This document shows positions 3,723 through 63,247 of a stretch of 64,000 nt of DNA, in pieces. Made by a program: the position numbers and the translations under genes. Source of the stretch: Eledone cirrhosa. Its lineage: Eukaryota. Where the stretch lies: positions 126,294,001 through 126,358,000 of the forward strand of contig OZ024742.1 in NCBI GenBank assembly GCA_964016885.1. The letters are read 5' to 3'. Every line of letters starts with the position of its first letter. The stretch's first letter is position 1. The notes beneath the pieces are model-generated. The model saw only the letters and a program-made list of their open reading frames with translations, had not been told where the DNA came from and searched no databases.

Positions 3723-3759
3723 GTTTGGGACATGATGTGTTGCAACTCGTTCTTTGACT

Positions 3760-8067: not shown

Positions 8068-8080
8068 ATTTTATTCAATC

Positions 8081-8760: not shown

Positions 8761-8902
8761 AATAAGAAGGTACTAAAGAAGATAAAACACGGAGCAGTCT
8801 TGAATAATAACGAGGGCCCCGATGAAGCCTATGATGGCAGTAATCTTGCTGCCTGTTATAAACTTGCTTCCGGAAATCATAATACAAATCTTTTAACAAT
8901 TT

Positions 8903-21775: not shown

Positions 21776-21829
<54 letters not shown>

Positions 21830-21919
21830 ACCAAAGATTAATATGATTCATTGATTACTCAATTAATATAATTTTACAATAGATTAAAAGCACTCTACAG
21901 TGTTTTCTGGAGTTATTAT

Positions 21920-22248
21920 TATTCAGAATAATAATAAATGAAGACATTCACATAATTAAAATATATGTTTTATTATATATATTTCGAAGGTACTGTGCTG
22001 TTTTTTCAGTATGTCCTCGTCAGATAAAATACATGAATTGATGTATGACATACCTCAACTGTCTTGATAGTTCAATTCCAGTATTGGCAATACTGGAATT
22101 GAACTATCAAGACAGTTGAGGTATGTCATACATCAATTCATGTATTTTATCTGACGAGGACATACTGAAAAAACAGCACAGTACCTTCGAAATATATATA
22201 ATAAAACATATATTTTAATTATGTGAATGTCTTCATTTATTATTATTC

Positions 22249-22254
<6 letters not shown>
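21920..22254. repeat. Palindrome with 167-bp arms and 1-nt spacer (centre 22087), between (TA)n tracts
   Basis: Arms read as reverse complements by eye (...TTCCAGTATTG G CAATACTGGAA...). Confidence 0.93.
22145..22206 (+). ncRNA. Minimal type-I hammerhead ribozyme motif (mirror copy on - strand at 21968-22029)
   Basis: ttttat-CTGACGA-[gga..tactg..cagta..ttc]-GAAA-tatata-TA-ataaaa. Intact core, 6-bp stem I, palindromic stem III. Confidence 0.75.
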
Positions 22255-22302
<48 letters not shown>

Positions 22303-22556
22303 AAGTATTTCCGTGGAATAGGTAAAGGAAAGAAGAATGCTCTATCTATAGTACAGAGTCATTTAATTATGTAATAAACAACGCAATATAATCATTACAT
22401 TACCCAGGGTTTCACAAAGTTATATGATTCTAAACAGAAAAGCCTGATATCGCTCATCAGAAGGAATCTTTATTTGGATATCCAAATAAAGAATATAATA
22501 ATGGAATAATAATATTGTGTTGTTTATTACATAATTAAATATATATATATATATAT

Positions 22557-25555
22557 ACATCATCATCATCTTCGTTTAACGTCCATCTTCCACACTAGCA
22601 TGGGTTAGACGGGAGTTGTCGCACTTGAGGCAAAGTTGGTCTGGTGACCGTGTCTCGCTCATATAGGACTATCTGGCAGGTTTTCTACGGCTGGATGCCT
22701 TTCCTAACACCAACCACATTTACAGTGTGGAACAGGGAACTTTTTACCGTGTTACCTACACGACCACATTACAGCGTGGACTGTGTGTTTTTTTTGTTGT
22801 GACACCTACATGATCTCGATCTCATTATCTCATTTATTTGGACTGGATGTTTGGTACCAGCTTTACAGAAAGAGGGTGGTGTTGGTGGGAGTGGAAGGAT
22901 AGGGTAGGTGTAGTGGATTGGGGTGTATATTTGGTTAAGAGGTGCCTACCGACTGTAGGTTTCGCTTCGTACATAGGCAAGGCGGGTCTTCTGTATTACT
23001 GCATAGCACCAAAGATCTCGGTCCAGTGACATTGTCTTAGAGAGGTGCAAGTGTGTAAAGTCGGAATTTATCAGATCGTGACACTTCCAGGCTATCTTCT
23101 TATCAGTATCAGTGAGGGCAAGTACACCGTTATCATTACGGACACACTTCTCCCCGACAATATCACTGTTTTCCTTGACACATTGTCTAGCAATCCTGAA
23201 CTCCTTACGTTTTTCGTCCTCACGTTGTAGAACATGCTTGAACTTTCTATCCTCTGCCTCCTTTTTTGCAAGGTACACTTGTCTCCTAGCTTCTCTCCTG
23301 GCCACTTGATAGTGCTCTCTACTTCCTTCATCCTGCCATACTTTCCAAGCTTGCTTTTTGGCCTTGATTGTCTCTTCCGCCTTACTGTTCCAGCACCAAG
23401 TTACTCTCATCCTGTCAATAGGTCTGCTCCAGCCACAGATTTCATCCGTTGCTTTCAGCAGGTTCACTTTCAAGAATTGCCACTGTTCCTCTATATCGCA
23501 CGTCTCTAATTGCTCTTCCTTAGTGTCAAAGGCATCAAGTAATAAGCTTTTAAATTTGTCACTGGCTATGGGGTCCTTCAACTTTCATATTCTTCTCCTC
23601 AAGGTAGGCCTCCTCTGTCGTCGAGTACGTTTATTCCTGACTATGAGGTCACTAATTACTAGGCTATGTTGGGAGGTGCATTCTTCACGGGGGAGGGATT
23701 TAGTGTTTACAACATAGACTTTGTCCCATCTTCTAGTAAGGATATAATCTATCTGGCTGGCGTGTTCCCCTGATCTATAGGTGATCAAGTGGTTTTCACG
23801 TTTTTTGAAGTTTGTGTTACAGATATTTAGGTTATTTGCGTCACAGAATTCCAGGACTCTGAAGCCCTCCTCATTTCTATTTCCAACCCCATAGCCTCCA
23901 TGGATTCCATCATAGCCATCACTATGTTGTCCAGCAATAATTAAGTAGTCACTGTCGGTTATTTGGGAGGTAGTGTGCATTAGCATCTCATAGAACCTGT
24001 CCTTTATAACGTCAGGTAGACCAGATTGGGGTGCATAAGCGGATATTATTGTCACAGTAGTTCTATTTAGAACTAGTTTTATTTTAATTATTCTGTCATT
24101 CACTCTATTTACGTCAATTACCTTATCTACCCATTTTTCAGCTAACATAATTCCTACACCACCCAGTCTATTGTCATCTTATCCGGCCCTCACAATTTGG
24201 ATTTATCCCCAACTCCAGCTGCTGTGATCAACTTATAGAGTTTCTTGAGGACATCACCTGGATCACTGATGGCGGCTCATGGGTGGATGTTGTTTACCTT
24301 GACTTTGCGAAGGCTTTCAATTCTGTGCCACACAAAAGGCTTATGGCAAAACTCTCTGCAATGGGTGTGAAGGATGATCTTTTTAACTGGTTGAAGTCCT
24401 TCATTCTGGTTGAAGTCCTTCATTCTCCAACAATGGATCTCAGACTGGCAACTCAAGCTAGCTGTGGACAAGTGCACCACCATGCATTTTGGGAGTAAAA
24501 ACCCAGCGTCCACATACTCCCTCCACAGCACTAATATCAAGAAGTCTTCCTGTGAACGTGACCTGGGCATTACGGTCAGCAGCGATTTGCGTTGGACGAG
24601 GCACGTCTCTAAAATTGTCAAGAGGGCCGAGGGTGTCTTAGCATCACTCAGCAAGACCTTTGTCAGCCGCTCTCCAGATATCTATTTAAGGCTGTATACA
24701 GCTATGGTGCGACCACACTTAGAATTTGCATCACCAATCTGGAACCCCTATCTTGCTCAGGATATTGACCGCCTGGAAACTGTTCAGAGACGTGCAACCA
24801 AGCGAATACTCTCCATCAGGCATCTACCATACTCTGAGCGCCTTGCTTCCCTGAGCATGGATTCATTGAAGCTCCAACGTCTGGCAATGGACTTGGTAAA
24901 CACCCACAAAATTGTTAACCATGTTGCCAACAACAACCTTGAGTACCTTTTTGATTTCCATGTGTCTAACACACGTGGACATGCCCACAAAGTCAGAAAA
25001 CAGCACAGCTCCCATGACTTTCGGAAACATTTTTTCACGCTGAGTTGCTGAAGCATGGAACAAACTACCTGCATCAGTTGTTAGCTGTCGAGACACTGCA
25101 TCCTTTAAGGCCTCCATGCTTCCCGAGATCCGCCAACACTACAGCTAACACATATACACATGTACTTCCCTGACATTTGTGTATTATTCTATGTACTATA
25201 TTGACGAGTTGTAGTGCACCTGAACACTTTACACAATAATTTCATTATTATTATTATTATTTCCCACCCAGAAAAGTTTATAGCATCGGTTTTTACCCAC
25301 AATGGATCTGGCAGACCCCGCCTCTCCACCTAGTCTCTTGAATACAACAAGCATCAACTTCTTTACGTTCAAGCATCTCTACAACCTCATTTGAGCGACC
25401 TTTCAATGTGCCTACGTTCATGGTACCAACTCTGAAGTTCGGAGGGTGGGATGGATGTGTTGGAGGGGCAGGGAGGGGTGTGGGAGACGGAATTATGTTT
25501 GTCATCCGTGTCTGAAATAAAGAGGGGTCCTTGTATTCTCGTCCTGCAGCGGGAG
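22557..25555 (-). mobile_element. Internally deleted RTE LINE (5' end and APE endonuclease joined to the 3' end, RT absent), split by a CR1 insertion
   Basis: ORF 25293-25505 (RVGTMNVGTL..CCIQETRW), 23585-24148 (ISAYAPQ, SQIDYIL, SQHSLV) and 22946-23581 (AWKCHD joined directly to LINSDFTHL). (GAT)n tail near 22560. Confidence 0.88.
24189..25261 (+). mobile_element. 5'-truncated, internally deleted CR1-clade LINE
   Basis: VDVVYLDFAKAFNSVPH, KCTTMHFG, ERDLGI, VRPHLEFASPIWNP, VQRRATK, TRGH. (ATT)n tail at 25244-25261. Confidence 0.9.
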
Positions 25556-25580
25556 ATATATATATATATATATATATATG

Positions 25581-26102
25581 TAGGCAGACCGAGAAAAACC
25601 TGGGACGACTTGATAAATTCCGACCTCACACACTTACACCTCTCCAAGACAATGTCACTGGACCGAGATCTTTGGCACTACACAGTCATACAGAAGACCC
25701 GCCTTGCCTAAGTACAAAGCGAAACCTACAGTCAGTAGGCACCTAACAAAATACACCCCCATCCCACTACCCCCACCCCATCCACACCACCCCCTTAAAT
25801 GTGAAGTTATGTTGGTACCACAATATCCAGTCCAAAACAAATGAGGTCGTATAGGTGTCACGACAAAAAAACACAGTCCACGCTGTAATGTGGCCGTGTA
25901 GGTAACACGGTAAATACCTCCCAGTCTACACTGTAAACGTGGTTGGTGTTAGGAAGGGCATCCAGCCGTAAAAAACCTGCCAGACAGTTCTATACGAGCA
26001 GGACAACAAATCTTGCCTCAAGTGGGAAAACTCCCGTCCAAACCCATGCAACCGTGCAAGATGGACGTTAAACGATGATGGTGATGATGATGATGATGAT
26101 GA
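25581..26102 (+). mobile_element. RTE 3' end fragment
   Basis: GRPRKTWDDLINSDLTHL, 3' UTR and (GAT)n tail. Confidence 0.85.
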
Positions 26103-26624
26103 GTGTGTTTTGTGTATATACATATACACTTTTCCCTCATAAAATCATGTTGGTTAAAAGGAAGCGGATGAGGTGTTTACAACTCATCCGCTTCCTTTCT
26201 CCACAGTGTTTTTTCTCTTTCATAATTCCCCCCCCCCCCCCCCCAAAAATTGTTTTCCTCCATCATTCTCAACTCGTTTTACTTCTCCCCCCCCCTCTAT
26301 ACTTCTCTCATTTCTCATCATATGTTTTAGACTCTTCTTCTTTCATTCTCTCCCTCTCACTCCCTTCTCCGACAATCCTTCCACTCATATAAGGTTATAT
26401 TTTAATCTAACGTTTTGTTATGTTTAATATCAGTTGGTTGCTTTACAGCTACTTCCGCATTTGATATTTCTACAATTTTATGAAAAAAATGTATATGTAT
26501 CCATGCTAGCATAGAAAATGGACGTCAAACGATAATGATGATGATGACATATATATGTATGTAAAAGTTAAACAGAAATAAAAACACAATCGGTGCAGTA
26601 TATGGAAGGAATATATATAGTAAC

Positions 26625-27443
26625 AGGATACTAGCTCCTTCCATTGCCTAGATGGTTCTATAGAAATAGTGGACATCTTCCGTTACCTGGGTGACAAAAT
26701 CAGCAGTGGTGGAGGGTACTCTGAAAGTACAGTAGCTAGAGTCAGAACGGCATGGAAAAAGTTCAGAGAGCTTATACCGCTAAAGGTTTCTCCCTAAAAA
26801 TGAAAGGCAGACTGTATGATGCCTGCATACGAACAGCAATGTTACATGGCAGTGAGACATGGGCATTATGTGCAGAGGACCTGCGCAGACTGGAAAGGAA
26901 CGAAGCATGCATGCTCCGTTGGATGTGTAATAGTAATATATGTGAACGGCAAAGCATAAATGAACTAATTGAGAAATTAGGAATAAGAGGGATCAGATGC
27001 TGTTTACTTGAGAGAAGACTACGTTGGTATGGTCACATGATGCGCATGAAAGACGACAGCTGTATAAAAAAAATGCAGGGCGATCAAAATAGATGGTAGC
27101 TACGGAGTAGGCAGACCCAGAAAAACCTGGGACGATTTGATAAATTCCGACCTTACACACTTACACATCTGCAAGACAATGTCACTGGACTAAGATCTTT
27201 GGCGCTACGCAGTAATACAGAAGACCCGCCTTGCGTAAGTACAAAGCGAAACCTAGTCAGTAGGCACCTCTTAACCAAAAATACACAGCCTACACTGTAA
27301 ATTTGGTTGGTGTTAGGAAGGGCATCCAACCGTAGAAAAACTGCCAGACAGTCCTATATGAGTGAGACAACCAATCCTGCCTCACGTGGGACAATTCCCG
27401 TCTAAACCCATGCTAGCGTGGAAGATAGACGTTAAACGATGAT
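26625..27443 (+). mobile_element. 5'-truncated RTE
   Basis: ORF 26752-27099 (LYDACIRTAMLHGSETW...RRLRWYGH) plus 3' UTR and tail. Confidence 0.9.
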
Positions 27444-29555
27444 TATATATATATATATATATGTATTAGATGACAAAAGGGTGGACTGGTGAAGTTCCCT
27501 TAAAATTTTATTCTTGCAAAAACACTATATATGACCAGGTTATGTAAAATCCTGGCAACATCATCAGGTGCATATTGCATAATTTGTTAATCAATAAAGG
27601 AATTACGGCAAACACAAACAGAGAAAATATTTGATTCGGAGATGTCCTATGAAATAGGTGTTATTGTTGCCATTGACCATCTCCAGTCGACCTCAGCTGT
27701 GATACAATGACTTCATAAAGAGAGACATGAAGACCCTTGATATCAACTCAGAGTCCTGAGAGGGCCCCACAGCTGACTAGACAAAATGGAGAAGAAACCT
27801 GAATCGTGTCAAAGGCATGACAACCTCCATAGTGTTGATGATTTACACGATAAACACCCACATGCTGTAAAGTGGTTGGTGATAGGAAGGGCACCAAGCT
27901 ATAGGAATCTTGCTAAACAAAGGGTTGGGAAACCCTTAGTTGTATCAAAGGCATGACAACCTTTCAGGTGAAAGACCAGCCCTGAGTGTAGTGTTAATAG
28001 TATTGGGAGAGAAAGGGATAATAATGATAACAATAATAGTAATAGGTGATGACAGAAGGATCAAATACCTTAGCTTCTCTTTTACAATTGGCCTGATGTA
28101 TCAGGTACAGGTTCAAGTGTCATAGTAACAGTTATTGAAGAGTGGGTTCTGGATAAATCACTTCACATCAAGGAAATTGGGATAAATACCGGCCCGATGA
28201 GCCTCTGGGCTTGAGACTTTGGACTTTAGATACATACCACCAATGCACACCCAACAGAGCATACATGCTTCATTCTTTTCCAGCAATCACACAAATGCTT
28301 TGCATTCAAAGCCCATGTATGGCTGCTATGCAGCATAGCCGTCTAAACACAAGCATCCTACAATCTGCTCTTCAAGCTGAGAGAGAGAGAAACCCTTTAT
28401 TGCCAGCTGAACATGTTCAACCTTATTGTCCATATGGTAACTATGCTTTCAGTACGTCCACCTCTACTACTAATAAGGTCACTTAAGTAGCAAAAGCCAT
28501 TTACTTCTTCTAGTGAACCTTCTAAACATTATTTCACATCCCCTTTCCAAACCCTCACCCCTGATACACCTCACCCTCCCAACCAATGCATACAAGCTTG
28601 AAAGCTGGACACGCTGTACATCTGATTTCCCACAATGCTATTACCATGACAAAAAGCACTAAGTCCACCCTGTATGCTGATCTAGTGCCACAACAACAAG
28701 CTGGCTGTTTTGGTGCCACGATAAAAAGCACCCAGTTCACACAGTAACATGGTTGGCATTAGGAAGAGCATTCATCTGTAGAAAGCAAGCCAAGATACAG
28801 ATCCATATGAGCATAGTGTTGTCTCCAAACCTGACTTGTCTCATAACGTGACAACTGGTCTAACCAATGCAAGCATGGAAAATGAACATTAAATGATGAT
28901 GATGTTAGTGTTGACTACTCCCTTGACATGTCACATGCAAGGTCTACTTTCTCTGTCAGATTTTCTGTGATCTTGCTACACTTAGTATGTGTCCATTGTA
29001 CACACTGGGTACATCATATGAAGTTTCTATCTATTCCTTTTTGGCATATTGAAAATGACCATTTACCTGATAGAAGCAGAGTTTTATTTTCAAAGACTTT
29101 ATAAGCCATTCATCTATCTCTAGCTTCTATAGCAACCGTCGAATTACCAATATACAGAGTATGCAACTCTTTCAAAGGCGCTTTCAAGGTAAAATAAATG
29201 CTAGATATAATGGTTTACACTTAGCTAAGTACTTCTTTCTCCTTCTTTCTCTATGTATGTGTGATTGTATATGTATGTGTAAAATTCTCAATTACTAGAA
29301 TAATTCCTCTGTGTCACCAACGAAAAACAAAACCCAACAGAATAACTACCAAGGAAATTTCTAAACCCATGCTAGCGTGAAAGATAGACATTAAACGATG
29401 ATGAGGATGAAATAGAGAGATAATTTCAAGAAAATAAGAATTAAGTTTATTTTTGTTTAGAGACAAGGGTCAATAATGGAGATGTTTCAATCTATTAAAT
29501 TTCATAACCCTGCTTTGCAACTCATGTAGATATTTATCTACATTATTAAGTACTT

Positions 29556-29915
29556 GGATTGGCAGTATCGGTAGGGGGTCGGACGCCATGCTTTCCAGCA
29601 TAGTTACGTCCCTTTACGATCTGAGTTCAAATCCCGCTGAGGTTGACTTTGCCTTTCATCCTTACGGGGTCGATAAAATAAAGTACCAGTAATGCACTGG
29701 GTAATTGCTGGCCTTGTGCCTAAAGTAGAAACAATTATTAAGTACTATACTTGGGTTGGATGCCATGCTTTCTAGCATAGTTACGTCCCTTTACGGTTTG
29801 AGTTCAAATCCCGTCGAGGTTAACTTTGCCTTTCATCCTTACGGGGTCGATAAAATAAAGTACCAGTAATGTACTGGGTAATTACTGGCCTTGTGCCAAA
29901 AGTAGAAACAATTAT
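29556..29915 (+). mobile_element. Two tandem SINE copies (same family as 9755-10045)
   Basis: Same core and tail. ATTATTAAGTACT is repeated three times around them. Confidence 0.88.
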
Positions 29916-31568
29916 TAAGTACTATATTTAAAAGTGCTGTAATATCAGAAAGATATCAGTTATAGCTATATATCTATATATTAACTATATAGTTATATAT
30001 CTATATATTATCAAGAGTTGGTTTGATAATAACACAAATATTTGAGTGAATCTTTACAACACACTCTATTCAAAACAAACATATGACAGCAAGCAGTGCT
30101 TCACTCAACATACTACAACTACTATCTTGTAAGCCTCTATGCCGAGTGTGGAGGCATCTGTTAAGTACCCAGTTAAAATTACAAATGCATAAGAAGCTAT
30201 TGGTGTGTATGTGTGGTAAGAAAAATTTTACAAATTCAGCAGTAGACCATATATTAAATTACTGTCTTTATTTGAAAATTTGGCCTATTATTTTTTCTGG
30301 GTGAAATTATGTTCACGTGGAAGAGTTGCTCTATGTGGTTGCTTGGCCTGCTAGAAATAGCAACAAAATCCCCCTCAAACCACCCTCTGCTGTCTCAAAA
30401 ATCGGATTATATAGTGATAAACTCCTTTTAAAGGACAGGAGAGTCACAGTTAGAGAACCTTTGATCATAGTTCTGCTGGATCAAGACTCACTTAGAACTA
30501 AACAATAACAACTGATATTGAGATGAGCCAATGTGGGAGCTGCTATGGAGTAGCAAAAAACAGCAGCAAAATCTCCCTCTAATCACAACCTAATCTTAAG
30601 CAAAACACATTGGATAATTTAATCCTTAACCCTTTAGAATTTAAACAGGCCATATCCGGCCAGAATTCTCTCACCCCTTTCTATTCAAACTGGTTGTAAC
30701 TGGCCACTCATACCGATGTTAATGTATTGTTCTTAAAATAAATATCAAAATCTCATAGACTCGATATGTGAGATAATTATATGAAAAAAGCCTTTCCATT
30801 GATCTTAAAAGTGTTTGTTCATGACTAATTTGGGACTAAATTACAAAAACAATCAATATTAAGACACGTAGCCATAGCCAAATTTCCTCAAATCACACCC
30901 TACTTTCTTAAAGTAATAGGACACAGAATAATGTAGTCCTCGACACATTTAGTCAGAAAATATATAAGATGGAAGTGTTTGTGTCATAAATCAGTTTGAT
31001 GATGGCTGACCTGGACTTCTTCTTCTTGAGTCGTCCCTCCATTGCAGGTGAAGCAAAATGACCTGGACCAAACAAAACGAAAAACTGAAAATTCTAGCTT
31101 TTTCTTAAAAAATAGTTTTGTTGTTGTTTAACCCCCAGATTAACCTTTATCAAGCAAACCTATGATCAAAAGCATTTCAGCTTTGGTTATTCAAGATGGA
31201 TTAAGGATTGGGTGGTCATTTTTAGCAGATCAAACAATCACATGGAAACATCCCAATTCACTCAAAACCCGTTTGGTCAGTTTTTATTGAGTAAATTCTT
31301 CTGCATTATAGATAGAAAGAAACCTGAAACCATAAAAACAGCATATCGGTGTGTATCCCAGGTTTCAGAATAAGTACATTGTATGCCTGAATGTTATAAG
31401 ATGTGACTAAAACAATTGGTGTTAGGAAAAACATTTACTTCTTCAAAACATCCATCCAACCCATGCCAAGATGGAAAGGTAAACACAAAATTGATGACAA
31501 CTAACATCTTCAATGTTTTAAAGAATTGTTAACAACCAGTACCTATACCTCCAGATTCATAGAATTAA

Positions 31569-31790
31569 CCATTTAGCATTTAAAATGGCCATATCTGGCC
31601 AGAACTCTCTTACCTCATTCTGTTCAAACCAGCTGTAATCGGCTGCTCACACTAATGTTAAGGTATTGTTCTCAAAATAAATGGTATCAAAATCTCATAG
31701 ATTCGATATTATGTGGGATAATTCTGTGAGATGAAAGTTTACCAGGAAAATACAATAGTATATATATAAAATAATGTAAATGCTAAAGAG
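31569..31790. mobile_element. TTAA-flanked MITE
   Basis: ttaa CCATTTAGCATTTA ... TAAATGCTAAAGAG ttaa. Related partial copy at ~30630-30780. Confidence 0.7.
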
Positions 31791-32139
31791 TTAAGTAGAT
31801 CACAAACATATTTCATCCCACTTTAAGCAGGATAGTAATCAAACCTTTTGATACCAACCTGCCCAAAACTACTCCAGTTTCTATGAAACAAACCCACCAA
31901 TTTTAAAGTGTTGCTACTTAAATTAAAATCTTCCAACATATTTTGATATAAGAACCTTTGCTAGATATTAAACGATGATGGCAATGATGATGATGATGGT
32001 GGTGGTGGTGGTGGTGATGTAGACGAGGATGAAGAACTTTCTATTAACTTATGTTACAAATATCATCTTACTAGTAAATCCCTCTAAATTTTTCATTAAT
32101 TAATTCTCTAGTGTGGAAATCTAGACTTCCAGACAACAT

Positions 32140-32560
32140 GAAAAGAAGCCTCTTTCAAGCAACTGTTACTTCTGTTCTATTGTATAGCTGCTCAATATGG
32201 ACCCTTACCTCAAAACTGGAAAAAGAAGATTAGATGGAGCTTATACTCACATGCTAAGAGTGGCTCTGAATATCACTTGGAGAGATCGTTAGAATAATGA
32301 GAAACTATATGGGAACCTTCATCCAGTATCAGACATCAACAAAGAGCATAAAGTCGGATTCACAGGGCATTGCTGAGCTAAAGACAAAATTGTGAGAGGA
32401 GTTCTTTTGTGGAAGCCTATACAAAGAAGAGCTAGCAGAGGACAACAAGCCAAGACCTATATCAAGCAGATTTATGATGATATAAACAGCAGTCCTTCTG
32501 TCCTGCTGAATATGATGAACAATGAATGACAACAGAGATTCAAGGGAGTTCATGCAAGCA
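32140..32560 (+). mobile_element. Decayed RTE-X-like LINE 3' fragment
   Basis: Conceptual translation with frameshifts gives WTLT...RLDGAYTHMLRVALNITW. Similar pieces at ~36060-36320 and ~49270-49690. Confidence 0.6.
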
Positions 32561-33387: not shown

Positions 33388-33465
33388 AAAAAAATATGGA
33401 ACACTTCACGAATTTGCGTGACATCCTTGCGCAGGGGCCATGCTAATCTACTCTGTATTGTTCCA
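33388..33465 (-). pseudogene. U6: 5'-truncated U6 snRNA retrocopy
   Basis: Minus strand reads TGGAACAATACAGAGTAGATTAGCATGGCCCCTGCGCAAGGATGTCACGCAAATTCGTGAAGTGTTCCATATTTTT, the conserved 3' ~75 nt of U6 with a few substitutions. Confidence 0.95.
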
Positions 33466-33834
33466 TGCAGAGAGGGATTGAAACTGGAATCTCATGAATG
33501 TGAGGCAAACGCAGGACCAAACTTTCACTTCCTGAGTCCCTAAGGTATAAGAAATTTTAGGCCCTTCTCTATTATTTTTTATATTAACGTTAATGATTTA
33601 TATATATATATATATATCATCATCTTCGTTTAACGTCCATTTTCCACGCTAGCATGGGTTTATACAATAGAATTAGGATTTAGCTTCAAGCATAGCTGTA
33701 TACAGATATGTATTGGAATTTCATATTTCTAAAGAAATACGGTATGTTTATAGATAAACATTTAGAAAGCTGTAGCTATGCAAAACACGAGGGCTACCGC
33801 CATCTGGCGGTGTCCAGCAGAAGCAAAGGCGACA

Positions 33835-33878
33835 ATTGTCGATGCATTTCGAACTTAACTGGTTCTCATCAGGATGAT
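33835..33878 (-). ncRNA. Minimal type-I hammerhead ribozyme motif
   Basis: atcatc-CTGATGA-gaac cagttaa gttc-GAAA-tgca-TC-gacaat. Intact core, perfect stem II, palindromic stem III. Stem I has two mismatches. Confidence 0.75.
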
Positions 33879-34225
33879 CCCTCCCACTCTTGTAACTGCT
33901 GGACTTGAAAACAGATGAGAATATATAGTTTTCTTGTCTGTGTAAATGAGGCGATTAATCTCATTTGCATATGAAGCTGCATAAGTTGGCTCAACTTATA
34001 ATAGAATAGAATTAGAATTTAGCTTCATGCATAGCTGAATACAGATATTTTTTGATGATCTAATGTTAAAGAATAAAAACTAATGATAGAATAAAATTTT
34101 TTTTTTTTTATTAAGCCCCCAGAAGGTGTATGGCCCTAAGCTATAGCTTATTTAGCTTATAGGTAAGTCCAGCGCTGGGCAAACTTCTTAACCATTCAAC
34201 AATGCTTGTGTAAAAAAAAATAAAT

Positions 34226-34405
34226 AATAATTGTTTCTACTTTTGGCACAAGGCCAGCAATTAACCAGTGCATTACTGGTACTTTATTTTATCGACCCTG
34301 CAAGGAGGAAAGGCAAAGTTAACCTCGGCGGGATTTGAACTCAGAATGGAAAGGCCCGTAACTCTATGCTGCAAAGCATGGTGTCCGACCCTCTACCGAT
34401 ACTGT
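34226..34405 (-). mobile_element. SINE (family of 9755-10045)
   Basis: Reverse complement of the head, core and tail. Confidence 0.85.
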
Positions 34406-35149
34406 CAATTCCCCCCCCCCCCCCAAAAAAAAATAAGGATTATAAAAAAATTATCTCATATTGTTACAATAACAAAATCTACTGTATTACATTATTGTTA
34501 CTTATTTTATTGAATATAGGGAACTTAGAGATGAAACTATTCAGTGGGTTTGAACTTAGAGATCAAACTATCAGGGATTTAGAGAGGAAACTACTAGATG
34601 TTTAGTCAAGTAATTAAGAGAGGGCTAACATATGTAGTGAACTAATGAATATTGATTAATTAAATTTATATTCGTAATGAGGAGAAAACAATCAGCTGTT
34701 TAAAAGAGAGGGAGTAAAAGGGGGAGAGAGGGTGAGGGTGAGTCAGAGAGAGAGAGAATGGGAATACAGAGGGAGTGAAAGTTGTGAGAGAGGGAAAGAG
34801 AGAGAGGTTGATGGAAGAGGAATTTATCTCAGTATTTAATTAATTCTATATTTTATTGAGTCCAGTAAGCATGAAAAGCAAAACTGATCTTGACGATATT
34901 TGAACCGAGAACGATCCTGCCTGACAGGGGGCCACAATTATGTAAGGGGGGTGGATCGGGGTGTAGTTGGTTAAATAGATCCTTATATAATGAACAGTAA
35001 TTTTACTGATCCTCACCACTCCGCAAAATGATGAAAACAGTCGACCGTAACGAGTTTGAACTTAGAACTTTTGAGACGTCACAAAACATTAGGCAACGCA
35101 TTTATTTCGCCGGTACTCTACTGTTTCAATTTTGGATAAAAATAAAAGA

Positions 35150-35340
35150 AACATGGAGACTTCTAGTGTCCTTAGCCCTAGGACCACCTTCCTACTCACC
35201 ACCATCGGCATGGAGTTGGCTACCTGTAGTTGTGAGCTTCGCGAGCTGGAATGGCTCTTCCAGCGCGTCTCCCTCACCACCCTCCGAGGAAACGCCTTCT
35301 CTATTTTGTCCGCCGGGCGGTCAGCGTGTGGGTCCACATA
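35150..35340 (+). mobile_element. CRE-like LINE 3' fragment
   Basis: ETSSVLSPRT...ELEWLFQRVSLTTLRGNA. Confidence 0.75.
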
Positions 35341-35447
35341 TGCTTATAATAGTGACAGTGAGAGAGCGGGAGAGACGGAGGCAGTGACAGTCGGACCTGA
35401 TGTATATGTATATATTTATTTACCACACCACATATATATATATAGAG

Positions 35448-35712
35448 GTACGTAGCCTAGTGGTAAGGGTATTGGACTTACATGGGTTCGAGTCCTGGGT
35501 TGCGTGTTGTGTTCTTGAGCAAAACACTTCATTTCACGTTGCCCCAGTATTCTCAGCTGAAAATGAGTACCAGCAATATCTGGAGGTTTAACCCTGCGAT
35601 GGACTGGCGTCCTGTCCAGGAGGAAGTCTTGTACTCGCAGTCGCTTCATGCCATGAAACCAGGATAAGCACCTGCCAAATGAGCCTTCTGGCTTAAGACA
35701 GACTTTAGACTT
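35448..35712 (+). mobile_element. tRNA-derived SINE with V-domain-like core
   Basis: A-box TAGCCTAGTGG, B-box GGTTCGAGTCC, and CCTGCGATGGACTGGCGTCCTGTCCAGG, which resembles the V-SINE domain. Confidence 0.8.
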
Positions 35713-35726
35713 TTTATAAATATATA

Positions 35727-35891
35727 TAGTGTCGGATTTAGGACAAATGAGGCCCTGTGCTAGTTATGATATGAGGCCCATTACTTGGGCCCCTTAGAAG
35801 AATGAAAACATTTGTTGGCAGGAAGATGTCCCCCTCCCCACTGCGGCCAACGGGGGCCCTGTGCTTAAGCACAATGGTAAATCTGGCACTG
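35727..35891. mobile_element. hAT-like MITE
   Basis: Imperfect TIRs TAGTGTCGGATTTA / TAAATCTGGCACTG with TATATA flanks. Confidence 0.65.
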
Positions 35892-36407
35892 TATATAGTC
35901 ATACATATATACACACGTGATTTTATTAAGAATTACATCTACTGTCTTCTTATCAATGAATACAATATCCAGTTTGTTGTGTTACATTCTCTTTTCAGAA
36001 TGCTAAGAATTATAAGAAAAGAAAAAAAACATGAAACCTCTTGACCTTACAAACAAAAATTCTCTACGGCAACTTCCCACCTGTTAGCCATACCATCCGT
36101 ATAAAGTGTCTTCAATTTGCAGGGCATGTCATGAGAGGTAAACGAACTTGCAACAAAACTTTTTTTATGGAAGCCCACTAATGTGAAGTGCAAATGTAGA
36201 AGACCTCTCAAGACATTAAAAAGAGTGATTGAGGAAGATATAGAATTATCCGTTGAAAAACTGAGCCAGTTAATGCTTGATTGAGTGAGATGGAAAGGTT
36301 TCATCTTGTTACCACAAAGTAGTGCATGAATTTAGTAGTAGTAGTTATTTATATTTCTTACGGAATGAAAATATACACGCAAATAATATATACCATACTT
36401 AATTACA

Positions 36408-36752
36408 TTAGTGGTTAGAGCGTCGGGCTTACAATCGCGAGGTTGTGAGTTCGATTTTCGGGCCGGGCTTTGCGTTGTGTTCTTGAGGAAGACACTTGAT
36501 TTCACGTTGCTCCAGTTTATTCAGCTGTAGAAATGAGTTGCGATGTCACTGGTGCCAAGCTATATCGACATTTGCCTTTGTCTTTCCCTTGGACAACATC
36601 AGTAAGCATAGAGAGGTGAAACTGGTATGCATTGGCAACTACTGGTCTTCCACAAACAACCTTGCCACGACTTGTGCTTGGGAGGGGAACTTTCTAGGTG
36701 CAAATCCCATGGTCATTAGTGACCGAAGGGAGTCTTTACTCTTTACCCTTAC
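36408..36752 (+). mobile_element. tRNA-derived SINE (third family)
   Basis: GTGGTTAGAGCG...GAGTTCGATT head. ACTTAATTACAT occurs on both flanks (TSD). Decayed minus-strand relative at ~7510-7770. Confidence 0.8.
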
Positions 36753-36849
36753 TTAATTACATAAATATTTCACATAAATATATAGTATTAAAACGAAAGA
36801 AAATATTAATTCAACACTGTGTATATCGGTCACATACAACAAGGAGTGC

Positions 36850-37300
36850 CAGAGCCTCCTTCTAATACGTTTTGAGGCAAGCCAACACGCTGGCAGCATT
36901 AGCGGATGTGATAGCGAGGCTAAGGCGCTGTAATGACCAAGCACCCTCACCAAGAGCAGCATCTGATACCTCGCTAATGCTCGGTGATAGTGAGGCTAAG
37001 GTGCTGGAACAACCAAGTAGTCCTACGGGCATCACTTGACACCTTGGTTACGCGAGCCGCCAATGATGACAAGAACTTTGTTGTCAGCGTCCCAGCCCCA
37101 CCACACCAAACGTCTAAAACTCCACTAGCTGGAAAAAAATAGTGTGCAGATAATTCCTGGTATTTTAGAATGTTATCCCGTTCGGCTACGGGAGCACTGA
37201 GCCTCACTTTTACCTCAGCATCCAAGATGTGGGAGGGAGCAAAGGGGTCACTAACTGTGACGTCCCAAATAAGACATCTACCCCTTACCAAGGGGCAAAG
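36850..37300 (-). mobile_element. CRE-like LINE 3' fragment
   Basis: RGRCLIWDVTVSDPFAPSH...WLFQHLSLTIT. Confidence 0.8.
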
Positions 37301-39100
37301 GTTTTGCAGACCTCCGAGACGGGTAGGGGAAAGGGTAGAAAGAAACTGTAAACCCTGTCCGAATGTTTACAATAGAAAGGATTCCATTAAAGATATTCGA
37401 TAAAAAAGCAAATGGAAAGTTGTTTTGACAGTGACGATGACATTGGTGATGAATTATTTTGGTTAGTCACAGTGTCAATTTTTATTGCAAAGATACGTGG
37501 TTATAGTTCATTATTTCAGACTATTACGTTCCTTTACGGACTGAGTTCAAATCCCGCCGAGGTTAACTTTGCCTTTCATCCTTATGGGGTCGATAAAATA
37601 AAGTACCAGTAATACACTGAAATAATTGCTGGCCTTGTGCCAAAAGTAGAAACAATTATTTCAGATTATTACAAGTATTTCTTTAAGGAAATCTGAATGA
37701 ATAAAATATAAAACCGAATAATAGATTGATTTTTAATATAGAAAGTAGAGAAGAGAAACGAAGGCTTTTAGACAAAAAAGTATGTTTGTTCCAATCAAAT
37801 GTAAACAAGTATAGTTGATATAGCACGCATCTATACACACACGCATGTGATAGCATCAGCGAAGTAAAGAGGAAAGACAAAAGATTTCTTCAATAAGAAC
37901 TTCTATTCGTGGTACAAAATAAAAACACAGATTTTGACCTGTGAAATATAACGCATGTTCACAAGCTGTCATATTTAAAATCTAACTAGAGATTATGAGC
38001 ATCAGAGGTCGTTTAATAAGGTCTTTCTCAACAATTCATCAGTTTGACTAGCAGTAAAAAAAACAACAATGTTTTAATTGGGGTGGATACAATAAAATAA
38101 TAAACTAGAAGGCCTCGAAACTCAACTAGTTGTTGACGTGAAGATGCAAGACTTCATCAAAAGTTCGCTTGGTTGTTATTTAGCCCAAGGTTAGTCCTGA
38201 TCAACTTGACCTATGATGAATAAAGACATTAAAGCTGCGATCATTCCATGAGATTTGAGGAAAATTTGGCTGCTATCTGTGGCAGGTGAAATGACTACAA
38301 GGAATATGATATAACTAAGGTGAATGTCTTTATATTTAATGACGACGGGTGACTCTAAAAGTAGGTATATGAAGCTGTGTAGTTATTGTGAAAGATATAT
38401 AATTAATTGCATTATAAGCTATAGGTGATAAGGTCTATTCCTATATACTTATATATATATATATATATATTCTTCTTATATATATATATATATATAAGGA
38501 GAATCTTGAGATCGTTAATTTAAGATTTACGCTAACGTAACTTTGAAAGTGAAACCCGTGAATTAATGGGTTTCTTTTTCAGAGTCAGCTTGTAATTATT
38601 ATTGGTTTCGTAGATTACACATAACTACATGGAAGTTACCGTAGTAGTAAAAGTGAAATGGATTTTCAAAAATAATCCCTTAAAGAACCACAGAGATTCA
38701 TTTCGTAATGTAGGAGAGAATTATAGTGGAGGAGAATCGTAAACAAACGAAACGAAAAATGAAGAAAACAAAATCTCGGTTGAAAAATTTAGTTTAGAAA
38801 TAAGAAAAAAAATTTGTCACTAACCATAAATAATTTTTTCGCATATCCAATGTCTGTGATTTTGGTAACTTTTCCATGCTTTAATGCAATGTGTGGTGTG
38901 ATGGAAAGCTTCGTATATTTGCTCGTGTCTGTAGTTGCGTGTTTACAATTGTTGCTGTGACTGAAGGAAGCGGTCGGGAGGTGGTTGAGTAAAGAGACAG
39001 TTAAACAACAACAGCAGCAGCAGCAGACCACCGAACAACCTTCTACAACCGCTGCCTCCACCTTTATATTAATAACTGCCATCACTACCATCATTATCAT

Positions 39101-39430
39101 GGCAGTATCGGTAGAGGGTTGAACGCCATGCTTTCCAGCATAGATACGTCCCTTTGCGGTCTGAGTTCAAATCCCGCCGAGGTTAACTTTACCTTTCATC
39201 CTTACGGGATCGATAAAATAAAGTACCAGTAATGTACTGAGTAATTTGATGGCCTTGTGCCAAAAGTAGAAACAATTATCATGGCAGTATCGTTAGAGGG
39301 TCGGACGCCATTCTGAGTTCAAATCCCGCCGAGGTTAACTTTGCCTTTCATCCTTACTATGTCGATAAAATAAAGTACCAGCAATGCACTGGGTAATTGC
39401 TGTCCTTGTGCCAAAAGTAGAAACAATTAT
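39101..39430 (+). mobile_element. Two tandem SINE copies (family of 9755-10045)
   Basis: Same head, core and tail. ATTATCAT appears at all three junctions. Confidence 0.85.
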
Positions 39431-41420
39431 CATCCCTATCAACGTCTACAAATATCGCCATCACCAACCTATGGAGGTGCTTCTCTGTGATCATCCGCCT
39501 TGTTAGAATTAGCACCAAATTCTCCCTCAAATCACGCACTATCATCTTTACAAAATATAAATTATCGCCACCGTCAACATACGAAGGTGCTTCTACGTGA
39601 TCACCCGACCTGCTAGAATTAACACCAAATTCTTCCTCAAATCATGCACTGTTGTCTTTAGAAAGGATAAATATCGCCACCTCCAACCTATGGTGGTGCC
39701 TCTATATAATCACTCAACCTGCTACAATTAGCCCCAAATTCTCCCTCAAATCACACACTATCGTTTTTACAAACTACACGTTGGACAATGCTGTCCTGGG
39801 TTCTATGTAAACGAAAAAAAGATGGGTTGATTCTAGCTGGAACGTCTTTGGTCTACTCAAACTGTTTTAACCTGGGGCTTAACAACAACGATAACAACAA
39901 CAACTTCTACACATGCTATTAAACAATTATCATCATCATCATTTCAACTAACCTCAACAATATCATCCCCACCTTCTATTCTGCCACTACCCCCCCCCCT
40001 CCGACTCCACAGCATAACTGTTGTCATTACCAAACCATTATTATCAACATCAACATCATCAGATATACTGCCACCAACACCACAAGCGTCACACGCGTCA
40101 CAGTATGTTACTATTATCACCACTGCCACCGCTACTACACATACACATAATCCTTACTGTTCTTACACTATTACCTCTAAATCTCCTCCCACTTATTTTT
40201 TACACGACCTTAGTCGACGGAAGAAGATCTTTTGCAGGGGAGCCGAGACAGATGGGAGTAATTGCACTCTTCCGTCGAAAAAAAATAGAAGAGAAGGTAA
40301 AAAACGAAGAAAATATTGGATATTGTCCATGAATATATGTATAGAAGAAAACAAAAACATGGATGGTCACGACTGGAATATCCTTTATTATAGATCTGCT
40401 AATCAAGGGTTAAACAGGGCGAAACATCATCGAAAACACAACTACCTTCACCAATATAGAGATATACCATTATCAACATAACTGTTACAACCATCACCAC
40501 CACCATTCACACCCGCCGTCGCCACCATCATCTTTTATTGATTTTTTGTTTTGTTTGTTTATTTTTAATAACGTCGTATGTAACTTCTCGCTACTAGTCA
40601 TAAAGCGTTGTCTCTATCCGTTAATCTCCATCTAACTATCTGTTCATCTCTATCTGTCTATCATCTGCCTGTCCACTTATATAATTCTTCTTACCTATTT
40701 TCTTTCTTTCTATCGGTCGGTCTTCTTCTCAATATTCCTATCCCCCCCCCCCCCCCCCCGTCCATGTGTACACAGATATTCCCTCACACCCTACAGCAAT
40801 CTATGTATATGTAATAAACACGACCTGATAGATAAAGCAACAAAAAAAAAAAAAGTGGTGGGGGTGGAGGGATACAGTGCACACAATGAGAAAACACTAA
40901 GTCTCAGCTGGAATGCCTTAGATCAGGATTAAACTGGTGTAAACAACAAAAATACCCTCTACATAGTTACTCGAACTGCGAGAAATAGTAACCACATTTT
41001 CTTTATATCACACTCAACTGCAAGGTTCCAACCTGTTACAACGTAACCCATATAGCAATAACAAATAATAATAATAATAATAATAATAATAATTTACATT
41101 TGATTTAAATGATTGACTTTCGATACTTTTCTTGAGTTTTGTTGACACAGCACATAACTGAGTGGAGTGGCATCTTAACTTTCTTAATACATTTTTTAAA
41201 TGAAATTTTATTGAGAAACTTTTTCGAAAAGCTATATAAGGAATAGACCTTATCACCTATAGCTTGTAATGCAATTAATTATATATATATATATATATAC
41301 ATACATATATATACATATATATATAATTAATTGCATTACAAGCTATAGGTGATAAGGTCTATTCCTTATATACTTATATACCTATATATATATATAACAA
41401 ATATGTTTTAATATATAATG

Positions 41421-42897
41421 TGAGCTCTGGATCCTCAGCCAGCCGGCTTCTCAACACCAACAGCTAATCAACCTGTTTGCAGAGTCCTTCCCTTCCACCA
41501 CGGTCCCTCCCCCGTCAGCTTGGTGCTCCTTAGGAGCCCCAATCACAGACCTGGTCTTCGAGTCAACCTTCCAATCAAAGATGGTTGGCCTTGAGCAGCT
41601 GCTGAGGAATATCGAAGTTATCGAACCCTATCAAGGTTTCTTCATACTCAGGAACTACCTGTCTATTCCTAAGCTTCTGTATCTGCTCAGGGTCAGCCCC
41701 TCTCACAGATTTCCGTCCTGCCTCCAACGCTTCGACGACCTAATCTTCGAGAAACTCGAGTGCCTGGTCAATGTTAGACTCTCTCCAGAGACCCGCGATC
41801 AGGCTGCGTTGCCCAAGCGATTTGGGGGTCTTGGTCTTCGTAAGTGTTCGTCCCTCTCTCTCCCCTGCTTCCTTTCCTCCACCCATGCTTGCTCCACCCA
41901 CGCTTGCTCCACCCTGGTGAGCAGCATCCTCTCCTCTCCAACAGGAAGTTGGGTGAAGCTCTCCATCAATGGAGTGAGTTGGGCTTGTCTCTTCCTGAGA
42001 AGGTGGAGGACAGTCGAAGTCAGAACTTGGGACAGCATAAGTTTGAAGGCCACCTTCAACTCCCTCTTCGTCCAGTCAGATGCGATTGCAAGGTGCCGCT
42101 TACTATCTGCCAGCACCAAATACTCAGGCGACTGGGTTGATGCCCTACCCGTGGCCAACATTGGTGGCCTGGACAAACTTCGTGTCTCCATCACCCTCAG
42201 AGTGGGAGCTGATGTCTGCATGGGTTTGAGGTGCCGATGTAGCAAACTCCTCGACTCCACAGGTCTTTCCTGCCGCCTGAATGTCGGCTGCTTCGCGCGT
42301 CACACGGAGCTAAACCCCATTCTGAAGAGAGCTTTGGCCCGGGCTAATATCCCCTCAGTCTTGGAACCATCTGGGTTGTCCAGAAGTGACGGCAAAAGAA
42401 CTGACGGTCTTCCCCTGTGCCCCTGGTCGAGAGGCAGGAGCCTTGTCTGGGACGTCACTGTTAGTGACTCTTTTGCTCTTTCCCACACCCTGGATGCTGC
42501 GGTTAGGACGAGAGCCACAGCTTCTGCAGCTGAGCGGAGTAAGACCCTCAAATACTCTGATCTGTCGGCCAGCTACATTTTTCAGCCTGTGGCTTTCGGG
42601 ACTTTTGGGGGAGTCGGGCCGCTGACTGCGGAATTCCTCTGTTCACTGGCGGCTCTCCTAATAGAGGTAGCTGGCGAATCTCGTGAGGGCGCTTGGCTGT
42701 TTCAGCGCATCAGCCTCGCCATCACCCAAGGCAACGTTGCGAGTGCGATGGCTTGCCTCAAAAATCATTAGAGAGGTTGCCCAGTACTCCTCGCGACGTT
42801 GCTGTCTTTTGCTCTGGTGTTGGCTCGGTTGTTCACCCCTTCCTTGACATTTTCTTTAATATTGCAACATTAAAAGAATATATCCTTCTGAATAAAT
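41421..42897 (+). mobile_element. 5'-truncated CRE-clade non-LTR retrotransposon (end of RT/thumb, zinc knuckle, restriction-like endonuclease)
   Basis: ORF 41581-42771: PKLLYLLR, LPKRFGGLG, CRC..LSC, RHTELN..KRTDG..LVWDVTV..E..KTLKY, FQRISLAITQGN. AATAAA at the 3' end. Confidence 0.9.
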
Positions 42898-43140
42898 CGC
42901 GAACTATTTATAATGTTATCGAAGCATTTGTAATGTTATTTATGTATATATTTAAAACATATTTGTTATGTTATTCCATTATATATATATACATACATAT
43001 AAACAATGAGTTATTTGGTTTGTTGATTATTCAACAAAGTTAATTTACAACAGATTAGAAGCACTCAACGTTTTTATCCGGAGTATCATTAATATCAATA
43101 ATATTAATAAATGGAAAATATCTTTTATAAAACCATATTT

Positions 43141-43199
43141 ATTTTATTATACGTATTTCAAGGGTACTAATATTTTAGTACGCTTTCGTGAGATAAAAT
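43141..43199 (-). ncRNA. Hammerhead motif, same family as 22145-22206, with a core mutation
   Basis: attttat-CTCACGA-aagcgtactaa aata ttagtaccctt-GAAA-tacgta-TA-ataaaat. Flank 43015-43140 is similar to 21840-21965. Confidence 0.7.
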
Positions 43200-43267
43200 A
43201 TAATAATTGGTGTAAAGATAGTGACATATCTTCATGTGAACTTCATGTTATAAGTTCAGTGAAGATA

Positions 43268-43307
<40 letters not shown>

Positions 43308-43505
43308 TACATATAGTCACTACTTTAAAACTGATAGCGTATGGTCTTCTAAATGTTTTTAATTAAACATACGGTATATTGCCAAATATACTATACATAC
43401 ATTCATGTATACATCGCAATCACTCTGTATAATCAGCTCCTGATTATTACTGGAATTCTATAAGAATCCAGATCTGTAATTTTCGGCAGAAGCAGGGGAG
43501 TGTGT

Positions 43506-43547
43506 GGTTCTGATGAACGCCAACCAGCATGAAACAGACTGTCAACC
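43506..43547 (+). ncRNA. Minimal type-I hammerhead ribozyme motif with GUC cleavage site
   Basis: ggtt-CTGATGA-acgc caacca gcat-GAAA-cagactg-TC-aacc. Flanks ATTTTCGGC / GCCGAAAAT can extend stem I. Confidence 0.8.
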
Positions 43548-44113
43548 TCTCTGCCTCTTTCGCCGAAAATAAGTGACATAATCACTACTTTAAAACTGAT
43601 AGCGTATGGTCTTCTAAATATTTTTAATTAAATATACTATACGTAAAATGATGATGATGATGATGATACATACATACATTCATATATATATATATATATA
43701 TAAAAAACACACAGTCCACGTTGTAATGTGGCCGTGTAGGTAACACGGTAAAAAGTTCCCAGTTCCACACTGTAAATGTGGTTAGTGTTAGGAAGGGCAT
43801 CCAGCCGTAGAAAACCTGCCAGAAAGTCCTATATGAGCGAGACATGGTCATCCGATCAGCCTTGCCTCAAGTGGGACAACTCCCGTCTAATCCATGCTAG
43901 CGCGGAAAACGGACGTTAAATGAAGATGATGATGATATATAAAATAAGTTATTCCAGGTTGAATCGGAGCTAACCACAGTAAGGTACTCAATACATAGCA
44001 GAGTATAAATGTTTTAATACAGAAGAGCTTCTACAGGACTAGAACTGTTTCATTCGTGATGATTTCTCACGGATGAAACAGTTCTAGTCCTGTAGAAACT
44101 CTTTGCTCAAAAC

Positions 44114-63244: not shown

Positions 63245-63247
63245 TAC

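What the first reader, a model, noticed from the sequence alone, without database searches (positions are those of the whole stretch)
21830..44103. Several distinct short hammerhead-ribozyme retroelements clustered at (TA)n tracts
Seen: four CTGAnGA...GAAA...TH motifs with pairable stems (22145+, 33835-, 43141- with one core mutation, 43506+) and three degenerate or partial ones (19205+, just left of this span; 22396-22465-; 44023-44103). They fall into at least three different sequence contexts. None is linked to an ORF, most lie next to (TA)n, and they are arranged as direct or inverted repeats. Known: minimal type-I hammerheads with very short palindromic stem III occur in Penelope-like element pseudo-LTRs and in metazoan retrozymes, which can cleave as dimers and yield circular RNAs. 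Inference: this genome holds a diverse population of non-coding self-cleaving retroelements that favour TA microsatellites. I cannot tell whether these families are already described.
Basis: partly seen in the sequence, partly recalled or inferred. Interest (0 to 1): 0.8.

Follow-up and report, generated by a model that had tools for sequence, protein, structure and literature searches.

The report
Hammerhead-tipped Penelope ends and retrozymes
The motifs are real hammerhead-ribozyme sequences at the tail ends of broken Penelope-like jumping genes and in two short non-coding repeats that likely hitch-hike on them; these are known kinds of element, but this animal genome carries at least 81,000 copies of one motif clan and likely over 200,000 in all.

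Summary
Confirmed: all seven flagged motifs are type-I hammerhead (HHR) sequences of repeat families; an eighth (21968-22029, minus) was missed. They are not one class and not a special cluster. Three (A 22145, A-like 43141, E 44053) are 5'-truncated 3' ends of coding Hydra-clade Penelope-like elements (PLEs); D (22398) is tied to Hydra by end similarity only; F (19204) is a Neptune-type end. Only B (43506, ~315 nt) and C (33837, ~341 nt) behave as non-coding head-to-tail retrozymes. Copies end at fixed sites against (TA)n, often with an inverted arm. The genome holds intact Hydra ORFs with 99%-identical end repeats, 81,486 exact matches to one HHR clan (reversed control 0), and about 90 HHRs/Mb in a blind sample (55 vs 2 shuffled); the window is not enriched. 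Both element kinds, and a Hydra family in octopus, are published; this scan also met PLE-end hammerheads on other genomes. New here: the families, the very large load, and end anatomy that fits internal priming on circular or multimeric RNA. Cleavage and circles were not shown.

The parts
21830..22087 (-). Family A, long arm: 3' end (pseudo-LTR) of a Hydra-clade PLE, ending at the long terminus against (TA)n 21786-21829; HHR at 21968-22029
   Evidence: 2090 first-look candidates, best 40 at 94-96% identity
22088..22254 (+). Family A, inverted short arm, 167 of 167 identical to the long arm, ending at the short terminus against (AT)24; HHR at 22145-22206, palindromic stem III TATATA
22300..22490 (-). 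Family D, long arm: HHR at 22398-22464 with intact core and long stem II; sister of the end repeat of the intact Hydra element H1
   Evidence: H1-D local alignment, p=0.003 by shuffles; 1862 candidates; no D-linked ORF in 4 loci extended by 5 kb
22499..22541 (+). Family D, inverted short arm ending at the short terminus against (TA)9
19148..19327 (+). Family F: Neptune-type PLE 3' end; minimal HHR at 19204-19237 with U4-to-C damage
   Evidence: 1545 candidates; Neptune-type GIY-YIG about 2 kb upstream in 1 of 5 extended loci; sister family N1 has the same end layout behind long ORFs
33666..34054 (-). Family C retrozyme-like insert, about 1.15 head-to-tail units of 341 nt; HHR at 33837-33876 (stem III TGCA, one stem-I mismatch); 3' end abuts a SINE
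   Evidence: 3705 candidates
42991..43260 (-). A-clan subfamily end (Hydra-type); HHR at 43142-43198 with G5-to-C core damage; ends against (TA)6
43316..43637 (+). Family B retrozyme-like insert, about 1.2 head-to-tail units (unit about 315 nt, 38-nt deletion here); canonical-type HHR at 43506-43547 with one stem-II mismatch
   Evidence: 3052 candidates
43944..44055 (-). Family E, long arm: Hydra-type 3' end truncated inside the HHR, ending against a short TA tract
44052..44101 (+). Family E, inverted arm carrying the HHR 44053-44097 (C3 lost at the junction; 4-bp stem III with 8-nt loop)

Best explanation
The motifs are hammerhead sequences left by Penelope-like retrotransposition into TA repeats: five inserts are 5'-truncated 3' ends of coding PLEs (A, A-like and E Hydra, D likely Hydra, F likely Neptune) and two (B, C) are non-coding head-to-tail repeats that are likely retrozymes moved in trans by a PLE enzyme. 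Shown: family membership, linkage of A-clan ends to RT plus GIY-YIG ORFs, fixed 3' termini at TA, inverted arms, wrap-around units in B and C. Inferred: a full element is transcribed across two end repeats, the two HHRs (as dimers where stem III is a short palindrome) cut out a unit RNA, the RNA is closed to a circle or stays multimeric, the endonuclease nicks (TA)n, and reverse transcription starts internally at one of two AT-rich sites roughly 40-190 nt downstream of the ribozyme and runs back across the ribozyme junction. Early stops give the short inserts seen here; a second priming or fold-back gives the inverted arm. The window copies are probably dead passengers.
For: A: 24 of 25 loci found with the upstream sequence run into the A end, 16 of 25 also have GIY-YIG homology on the same strand; four loci are colinear over up to 3.1 kb at 85-92% with RT and EN; A-clan HHRs flank sister ORFs of 750, 554 and 515 aa. 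E: one Hydra endonuclease family was seen at L205, L247 and L248, all E loci (output partly cut). Hydra motifs RWK, DKT, CxCX5C, CxxC/CxH, no CCHH in H1 and H2. Intact 719-aa frames at 6 loci, end repeats 99% identical. In full-length H1 and H2 both termini lie inside the 5' leader, at short AT/TA matches. Inverted arms end at the short terminus in 14 of 17 A loci and at the long one in 0. B, C: direct wrap in 17 of 30 and 18 of 25, TA within 420 nt in 27 of 30 and 18 of 25, inverted arms in 9 of 30 and 4 of 25; no shared non-unit upstream sequence except one duplicated locus pair and no colinear ORF; related arrays of 311-312 nt period; B and C share a 3' segment. Compensatory stem-I pairs in B (CG 18, UA 7) and E (CG 9, AU 6); 7 of 9 A-clan subfamilies fold different stems II.
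Against: No cleavage, circle or RNA end was observed. No autonomous element with the B or C 3' end was found (best link C-H1, p=0.02 among 45 pairs). The B and C queries began with the wrapped segment, so a coding parent would be under-sampled, most of all for C. D has no ORF in 4 extended loci; F rests on 1 of 5 loci plus a sister family. No intact frame of family A proper among the best 150 hits. Compensatory changes are single inherited events, counted many times. Published minimal PLE hammerheads cleave weakly in vitro (PMC4209133) and only 1 of 9 Xenopus retrozyme dimers cleaved (bioRxiv 10.64898/2026.07.22.740005).
Confidence: 0.8

Rival explanations
1. All inserts, B and C included, are truncated ends of coding PLEs copied from linear read-through transcripts of tandem copies; no circle and no separate retrozyme class is needed.
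For: PLEs form partial tandems (PMC8557442, section 6 passage); B and C share the TA target, two termini and inverted arms with PLE ends; my B and C queries favour wrapped copies.
Against: No B or C locus (30 and 25) has shared non-unit upstream sequence or a colinear ORF; the 16 B hits that were not forced to wrap still lead into the unit or unrelated flank; pure arrays of 311-312 nt exist; B has an extended, canonical-type stem I.
Confidence: 0.12
2. All seven are non-coding self-cleaving retroelements.
For: No ORF is attached to any copy inside the window; short copies far outnumber long ones.
Against: A, A-clan and E ends are joined to Hydra RT/EN elsewhere, F-type ends to Neptune ORFs. 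Short truncated copies could in part have become independent non-autonomous families; this was not tested.
Confidence: 0.04
3. B and C are satellites that spread by DNA-level unequal crossover or as foldback DNA transposons (MITE-like), and the perfect palindrome is an assembly artefact.
For: Tandem arrays exist; D and A inserts look like terminal inverted repeats flanked by TA; the window's arms are 100% identical while other loci average 97%.
Against: Thousands of dispersed copies on many chromosomes with fixed 3' and ragged 5' ends; the two arms end at two different, family-defined termini, which neither a DNA transposon nor a chimeric read would give.
Confidence: 0.04

Closest known systems
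Hydra-clade Penelope-like elements (Craig et al. 2021, PMC8557442), incl. Hydra-1_Obim of Octopus bimaculoides
   Same: Single ORF with RWK, DKT, CxCX5C linker, C-terminal GIY-YIG without CCHH; HHR near the 3' end; (TA)n target; inverted 5'-truncated copies; a tail at one end only.
   Different: [quoted passage not shown] This genome has several families, some with 0.6-2 kb 3' UTRs, intact frames and tens of thousands of candidate fragments; the A-clan tail is 87 nt, not 30-40.
Minimal hammerheads of metazoan PLE end repeats (Cervera and de la Pena 2014, PMC4209133)
   Same: Type I, short palindromic stem III, many consensus families, mostly single motifs from truncated PLEs, pairs on opposite strands, U3-A8 core variant.
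   Different: Counts there are about 2,000-9,000 per genome; here one clan alone has 81,486 exact matches.
Metazoan non-LTR retrozymes (Cervera and de la Pena 2020, PMC7229834; Li, Clavereau and Pollet 2026 preprint)
   Same: Non-coding 300-350 nt units with one type-I HHR, head-to-tail, AT-rich, highly self-paired, in genomes with PLEs.
   Different: B and C are new sequences, mostly dispersed 1.1-1.6-mers with PLE-type fixed ends, TA target and inverted arms; cleavage and circles, shown for coral, mussel and axolotl, are not shown here.
Neptune-clade PLEs
   Same: DKG motif, CX4CxxC linker, C-terminal GIY-YIG, minimal HHR about 100 nt from a (TA)n-linked end (sister family N1).
   Different: F's own ORF is known from one truncated locus; Neptune versus Nematis was not resolved by a tree.

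Membership tests
Type-I hammerhead ribozyme | Core CUGANGA / GAAA / UH with three stems | tested here: met
   Intact core in 28 of 30 A, 22 of 30 B, 17 of 25 C, 11 of 15 D, 17 of 20 E, 14 of 20 F copies; three window copies have a core change
Type-I hammerhead ribozyme | Stem covariation | tested here: met
   B 94.5% paired, double changes 10 vs 4.8 shuffled (0 of 500); E 91.8%, 7 vs 3.2 (1 of 500); A-clan stems II differ yet fold in 7 of 9 representatives. Few independent events
Type-I hammerhead ribozyme | Rfam hammerhead model at gathering score | tested here: not met
   No hit in the window; HH9 at 25.5 bits for B copy L032 and 37.7 for the L153 array, gathering 52
Type-I hammerhead ribozyme | Self-cleavage | not testable with these tools
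   No assay; only contigs were available
Hydra-clade PLE (A, A-like, E) | HHR end joined to an RT plus C-terminal GIY-YIG ORF | tested here: met
   for the A clan; for E (three loci)
Hydra-clade PLE (A, A-like, E) | RWK, DKT, CxCX5C linker, no CCHH, CxxC and CxH | tested here: met
   All seen in H1 and H2; DKT and CxH in the A-sister L376, whose two other Cys motifs are damaged; RW and intact linker in L378; linker in A
Hydra-clade PLE (A, A-like, E) | (TA)n target, 5' truncation, inverted copies | tested here: met
   A: TA 30 of 30, inverted 18 of 30; E: 17 of 20, 7 of 20
Hydra-clade PLE (A, A-like, E) | Placement in the Hydra clade by RT phylogeny with named references | not tested
   No named reference proteins were fetched; database relatives are unnamed
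Hydra-clade PLE (D) | Own ORF upstream | tested here: inconclusive
   None in 4 loci extended by 5 kb; end is homologous to the H1 end
Neptune-type PLE (F) | End joined to a GIY-YIG with CX2-5CxxC linker | tested here: inconclusive
   1 of 5 extended loci; none of the 29 other EN hits led to an F end, they belong to sister family N1
Non-LTR retrozyme (B, C) | Non-coding 150-450 nt unit, head-to-tail, one HHR per unit | tested here: met
   Units about 315 and 341 nt; query bias noted
Non-LTR retrozyme (B, C) | Expressed as linear and circular monomers | tested here: inconclusive
Non-LTR retrozyme (B, C) | Identified mobilising PLE | tested here: inconclusive
   Shared insertion pattern but no matching autonomous 3' end

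The most novel reading that the evidence does not exclude
This genome carries one of the largest hammerhead loads yet seen (about 230,000-270,000 intact-core motifs, about 90 per Mb, above the 126,247 reported for axolotl), driven by still-active Hydra PLEs that copy ribozyme-cut circular RNA by internal priming at TA microhomology, and the same machinery moves small retrozyme circles; intact enzyme and candidate cargo RNAs sit side by side, so the circular-template model of PLE transposition can be tested directly.
Probability: 0.4. Interest if true: 0.65.

Novelty: new member of a known kind. Interest (0 to 1): 0.42.

Why it matters
The element kinds are published, so the window itself is ordinary for this genome. 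What deserves a look is the scale and the test material. One HHR clan has 81,486 exact copies and Hydra coding remnants fill about 2% of a blind sample, for a clade described from some two dozen families. Young intact Hydra ORFs coexist with retrozyme-like units that share their insertion pattern. The role of PLE hammerheads and the mobiliser of animal retrozymes are stated as open in the papers read. The many inverted arms would also form long double-stranded RNA when transcribed (inference), which may matter for RNA editing in this host.

Tried and rejected
Rfam: no hammerhead in the window. Pfam: no family for H1, H2 or the RS-rich ORF; PDB none for the latter. My first lead, a Naiad RT beside family A (L005, L006), was wrong twice: the RT is DKT-type (Hydra), and in L005 it is another family (H1) that A merely abuts. 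Two apparent E links were dropped: the Neptune ORF in L244 and the Hydra EN in L246 have their own HHR ends. A strict descriptor (4 of 4 stem-II pairs) found 0 hits in the window; the relaxed one is the one reported. The endonuclease search for F returned sister family N1, not F. No autonomous partner for B or C among about 1.2 Mb of fetched loci. Sequencing runs: no RNA holder listed; contigs gave no RNA ends. 'Local cluster' rejected. Arms are on average no more alike (0.971) than family members (0.967), so general concerted evolution of arms is not supported. Literature searches: octopus + Penelope + hammerhead ribozyme, retrozyme + octopus, cephalopod + PLE + Hydra + Neptune, hammerhead ribozyme + cephalopod, octopus genome + Penelope, circular RNA or internal priming, microhomology + TPRT: no paper on cephalopod retrozymes or on a hammerhead count in a cephalopod; subscription journals, Repbase and Dfam were not searched, so these families may be catalogued there.
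Full report
Setting. The window is G000:C3:126,294,001-126,358,000 of a 3.0-Gb animal assembly. It is mostly repeats. The host looks like an octopus-type cephalopod from its SINEs; that is recalled, not tested by a call.

Observation. All seven motifs are present, and an eighth, the mirror of 22145, lies at 21968-22029 in a perfect 167-nt palindrome. A descriptor requiring the CUGANGA/GAAA/UH core and 3 of 4 pairs in stems I and II gives 3 hits in the window (shuffled mean 0.33; 2 of 200 shuffles reach 3) and 55 hits in 59 blind 10-kb regions (shuffled mean 2.05, maximum 5 of 20); 47 of 55 lie within 300 nt upstream of (TA)5, background 24% (one of 60 requested regions did not exist). A stricter version found none in the window. 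The window is therefore real but not enriched. Bootstrap over regions gives 61-122 per Mb, 183,000-366,000 in the genome, point value 269,000. A direct whole-genome count of one clan pattern gives 81,486 with 0 for the reversed control; the blind sample predicted 96,000 for that pattern, so a calibrated total is about 230,000 (inference). U3-A8 core variants add 17 hits against 5.35.

Families. Each motif belongs to a repeat family: first-look candidates were 2090 (A), 3052 (B), 3705 (C), 1862 (D), 1545 (F) and 65 (E, queried with a non-window copy; the blind sample shows E-like ends at 9 places in 590 kb, so 65 is far too low). Only the best 40 were scored and 15-30 fetched per family, so these samples favour long, well-preserved copies and include the window's own copy (not for E).

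Coding parents. Four A copies share upstream sequence. Searching with it gave 25 loci, of which 24 run into the A end and 16 also show GIY-YIG homology on the same strand. Four extended loci are colinear over up to 3.1 kb with RT and endonuclease. No intact frame of A proper was among the best 150 hits, but sister frames of 750, 554 and 515 aa carry A-clan hammerheads downstream, upstream or both. Two other families, H1 (719 aa, 6 loci) and H2, have intact frames and end repeats 99% identical. H1 and H2 show the Hydra diagnostics of PMC8557442 section 11. RT and EN searches gave 20,921 and 50,989 candidates, and Hydra coding homology covers 12,079 of 590,000 blind bases. For E, one Hydra EN family was seen at three loci, all E loci, twice upstream on the same strand and once in the inverted arm (the output of 63 was partly cut); two other apparent links were rejected. 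D's end aligns with the H1 end, but no ORF was found in 4 extended D loci. F has a Neptune-type EN about 2 kb upstream in 1 of 5 extended loci, and sister family N1 has the same end layout behind long DKG-type frames.

Non-coding units. B and C differ: upstream of the hammerhead lies the 3' part of the same unit (17 of 30 and 18 of 25, against 1 of 30 for A and 0 for D, E, F). No shared non-unit upstream sequence or colinear Hydra or Neptune ORF was found in 55 loci, apart from one duplicated pair. Related arrays have periods of 311-312 nt; single periods fold strongly as circles (z -7.5 for B, -3.9 for C, -6.0 for B-prime, mononucleotide shuffles). B and C share a 3' segment. Caveat: both queries began with the wrapped segment. 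Run X4 behaves as RNA, since its contig leaves the ZRSR2-like exon at 48940 and continues in the upstream exon (compare), and it holds 74 B-clan contigs.

Structure. B pairs at 94.5% with a CG/UA switch in stem I, E at 91.8% with a CG/AU switch; these are few inherited events. In the A clan, picked without any stem-II or stem-III pairing rule, 7 of 9 subfamily representatives fold different stems II (z -1.9 to -6.6) and all 9 have a self-complementary stem III. Window copies are worn: core changes at 19204, 43142 and 44053, stem mismatches in B and C; A's hammerhead would be buried in the palindrome's hairpin in a read-through transcript (inference).

Mechanism. Shown: A, B, D, E, H1 and H2 each have two fixed 3' termini against TA (C by eye; F one). 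In full-length H1 and H2 these termini lie inside the 5' leader at short AT/TA matches, about 40 and 110 nt past the cleavage site. Inverted arms of A end at the short terminus in 14 of 17 loci and never at the long one (the query selected long main arms). Inferred: an RNA cut at both hammerheads and primed 40-110 nt from its 5' end could not copy the ORF unless it is circular or multimeric, which is the model proposed in PMC4209133; it also explains why long ends are not lost. A linear read-through template is not excluded. B and C would use such an enzyme in trans; the partner was not identified.

Comparison. Hydra PLEs with hammerheads and TA targeting, including one octopus family, are in PMC8557442 (read: abstract, passages, section 11, supplement part 2). 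Minimal PLE hammerheads, opposite-strand pairs and U3-A8 are in PMC4209133 (read: parts 1-2 of 4). Retrozymes and the 126,247 axolotl motifs are in PMC7229834 (passages, section 15); the PLE origin of retrozymes in bioRxiv 10.64898/2026.07.22.740005 (parts 1-3 of 5; supplements closed, and they may hold relevant counts). PMC13282606 (passages) reports recently active PLE families in Octopus vulgaris and does not mention ribozymes in its main text. My searches found no cephalopod retrozyme or hammerhead count; Repbase, Dfam and closed journals were not covered. Descriptors differ between studies, so the comparison of counts is rough. Earlier notes of this scan describe PLE-end hammerheads on other genomes, none on this one; they are unchecked.

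Verdict. New members of known kinds. Interest 0.42, for the scale and for the testable pairing of intact Hydra enzymes with retrozyme-like cargo.

Noticed in passing
window 48230-48940 (-): Last exon of a ZRSR2-like gene (66% to P0121, named U2AF35-related protein 2); splice junction at 48940 seen in run X4; the upstream exons lie outside the window.
   Followed up: yes
window 33390-33495 (-): U6 snRNA copy (Rfam 83 bits) with an atypical 5' end, followed by a SINE tail; probably a retrocopy or U6-LINE chimera.
   Followed up: no
window 8036-11921 (+): Broken Ty3/Gypsy gag-pol remnant with a SINE inside.
   Followed up: no
L153 5379-7001 and L160 4778-6238: Tandem arrays of 469-475 nt units with a compact hammerhead, 99-100% identical units; a further retrozyme-like family.
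   Followed up: partly
L315, L335, L054: B-clan units whose hammerheads use the U3-A8 core instead of C3-G8, one locus a dimer of two different variants.
   Followed up: partly
L154 1871-2135; L244 3250-3350 (read on the minus strand): The intact Hydra family H2 and a Neptune-type family both carry U3-A8 hammerheads.
   Followed up: partly
window 41419-42771 (+), also 36974-37366 and 58177-58512: 450-aa frame and fragments of a non-LTR retrotransposon with a restriction-like endonuclease-type C-terminus (label from recall).
   Followed up: no
window 22946-24178, 26740-27099, 60724-63269: RTE/CR1-type LINE remnants, several in inverted orientation to each other (labels from recall).
   Followed up: no
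window 19845-20224, 29576-29926, 39450-39773, 44774-45103: Tandem repeats of 19, 177, 110 and 112 nt, the longer ones made of SINE parts.
   Followed up: no
blind sample L312-L370: Many further hammerhead families absent from the window (for example stem III GTAC, CTAG, GATC), each near TA; parents not traced.
   Followed up: partly
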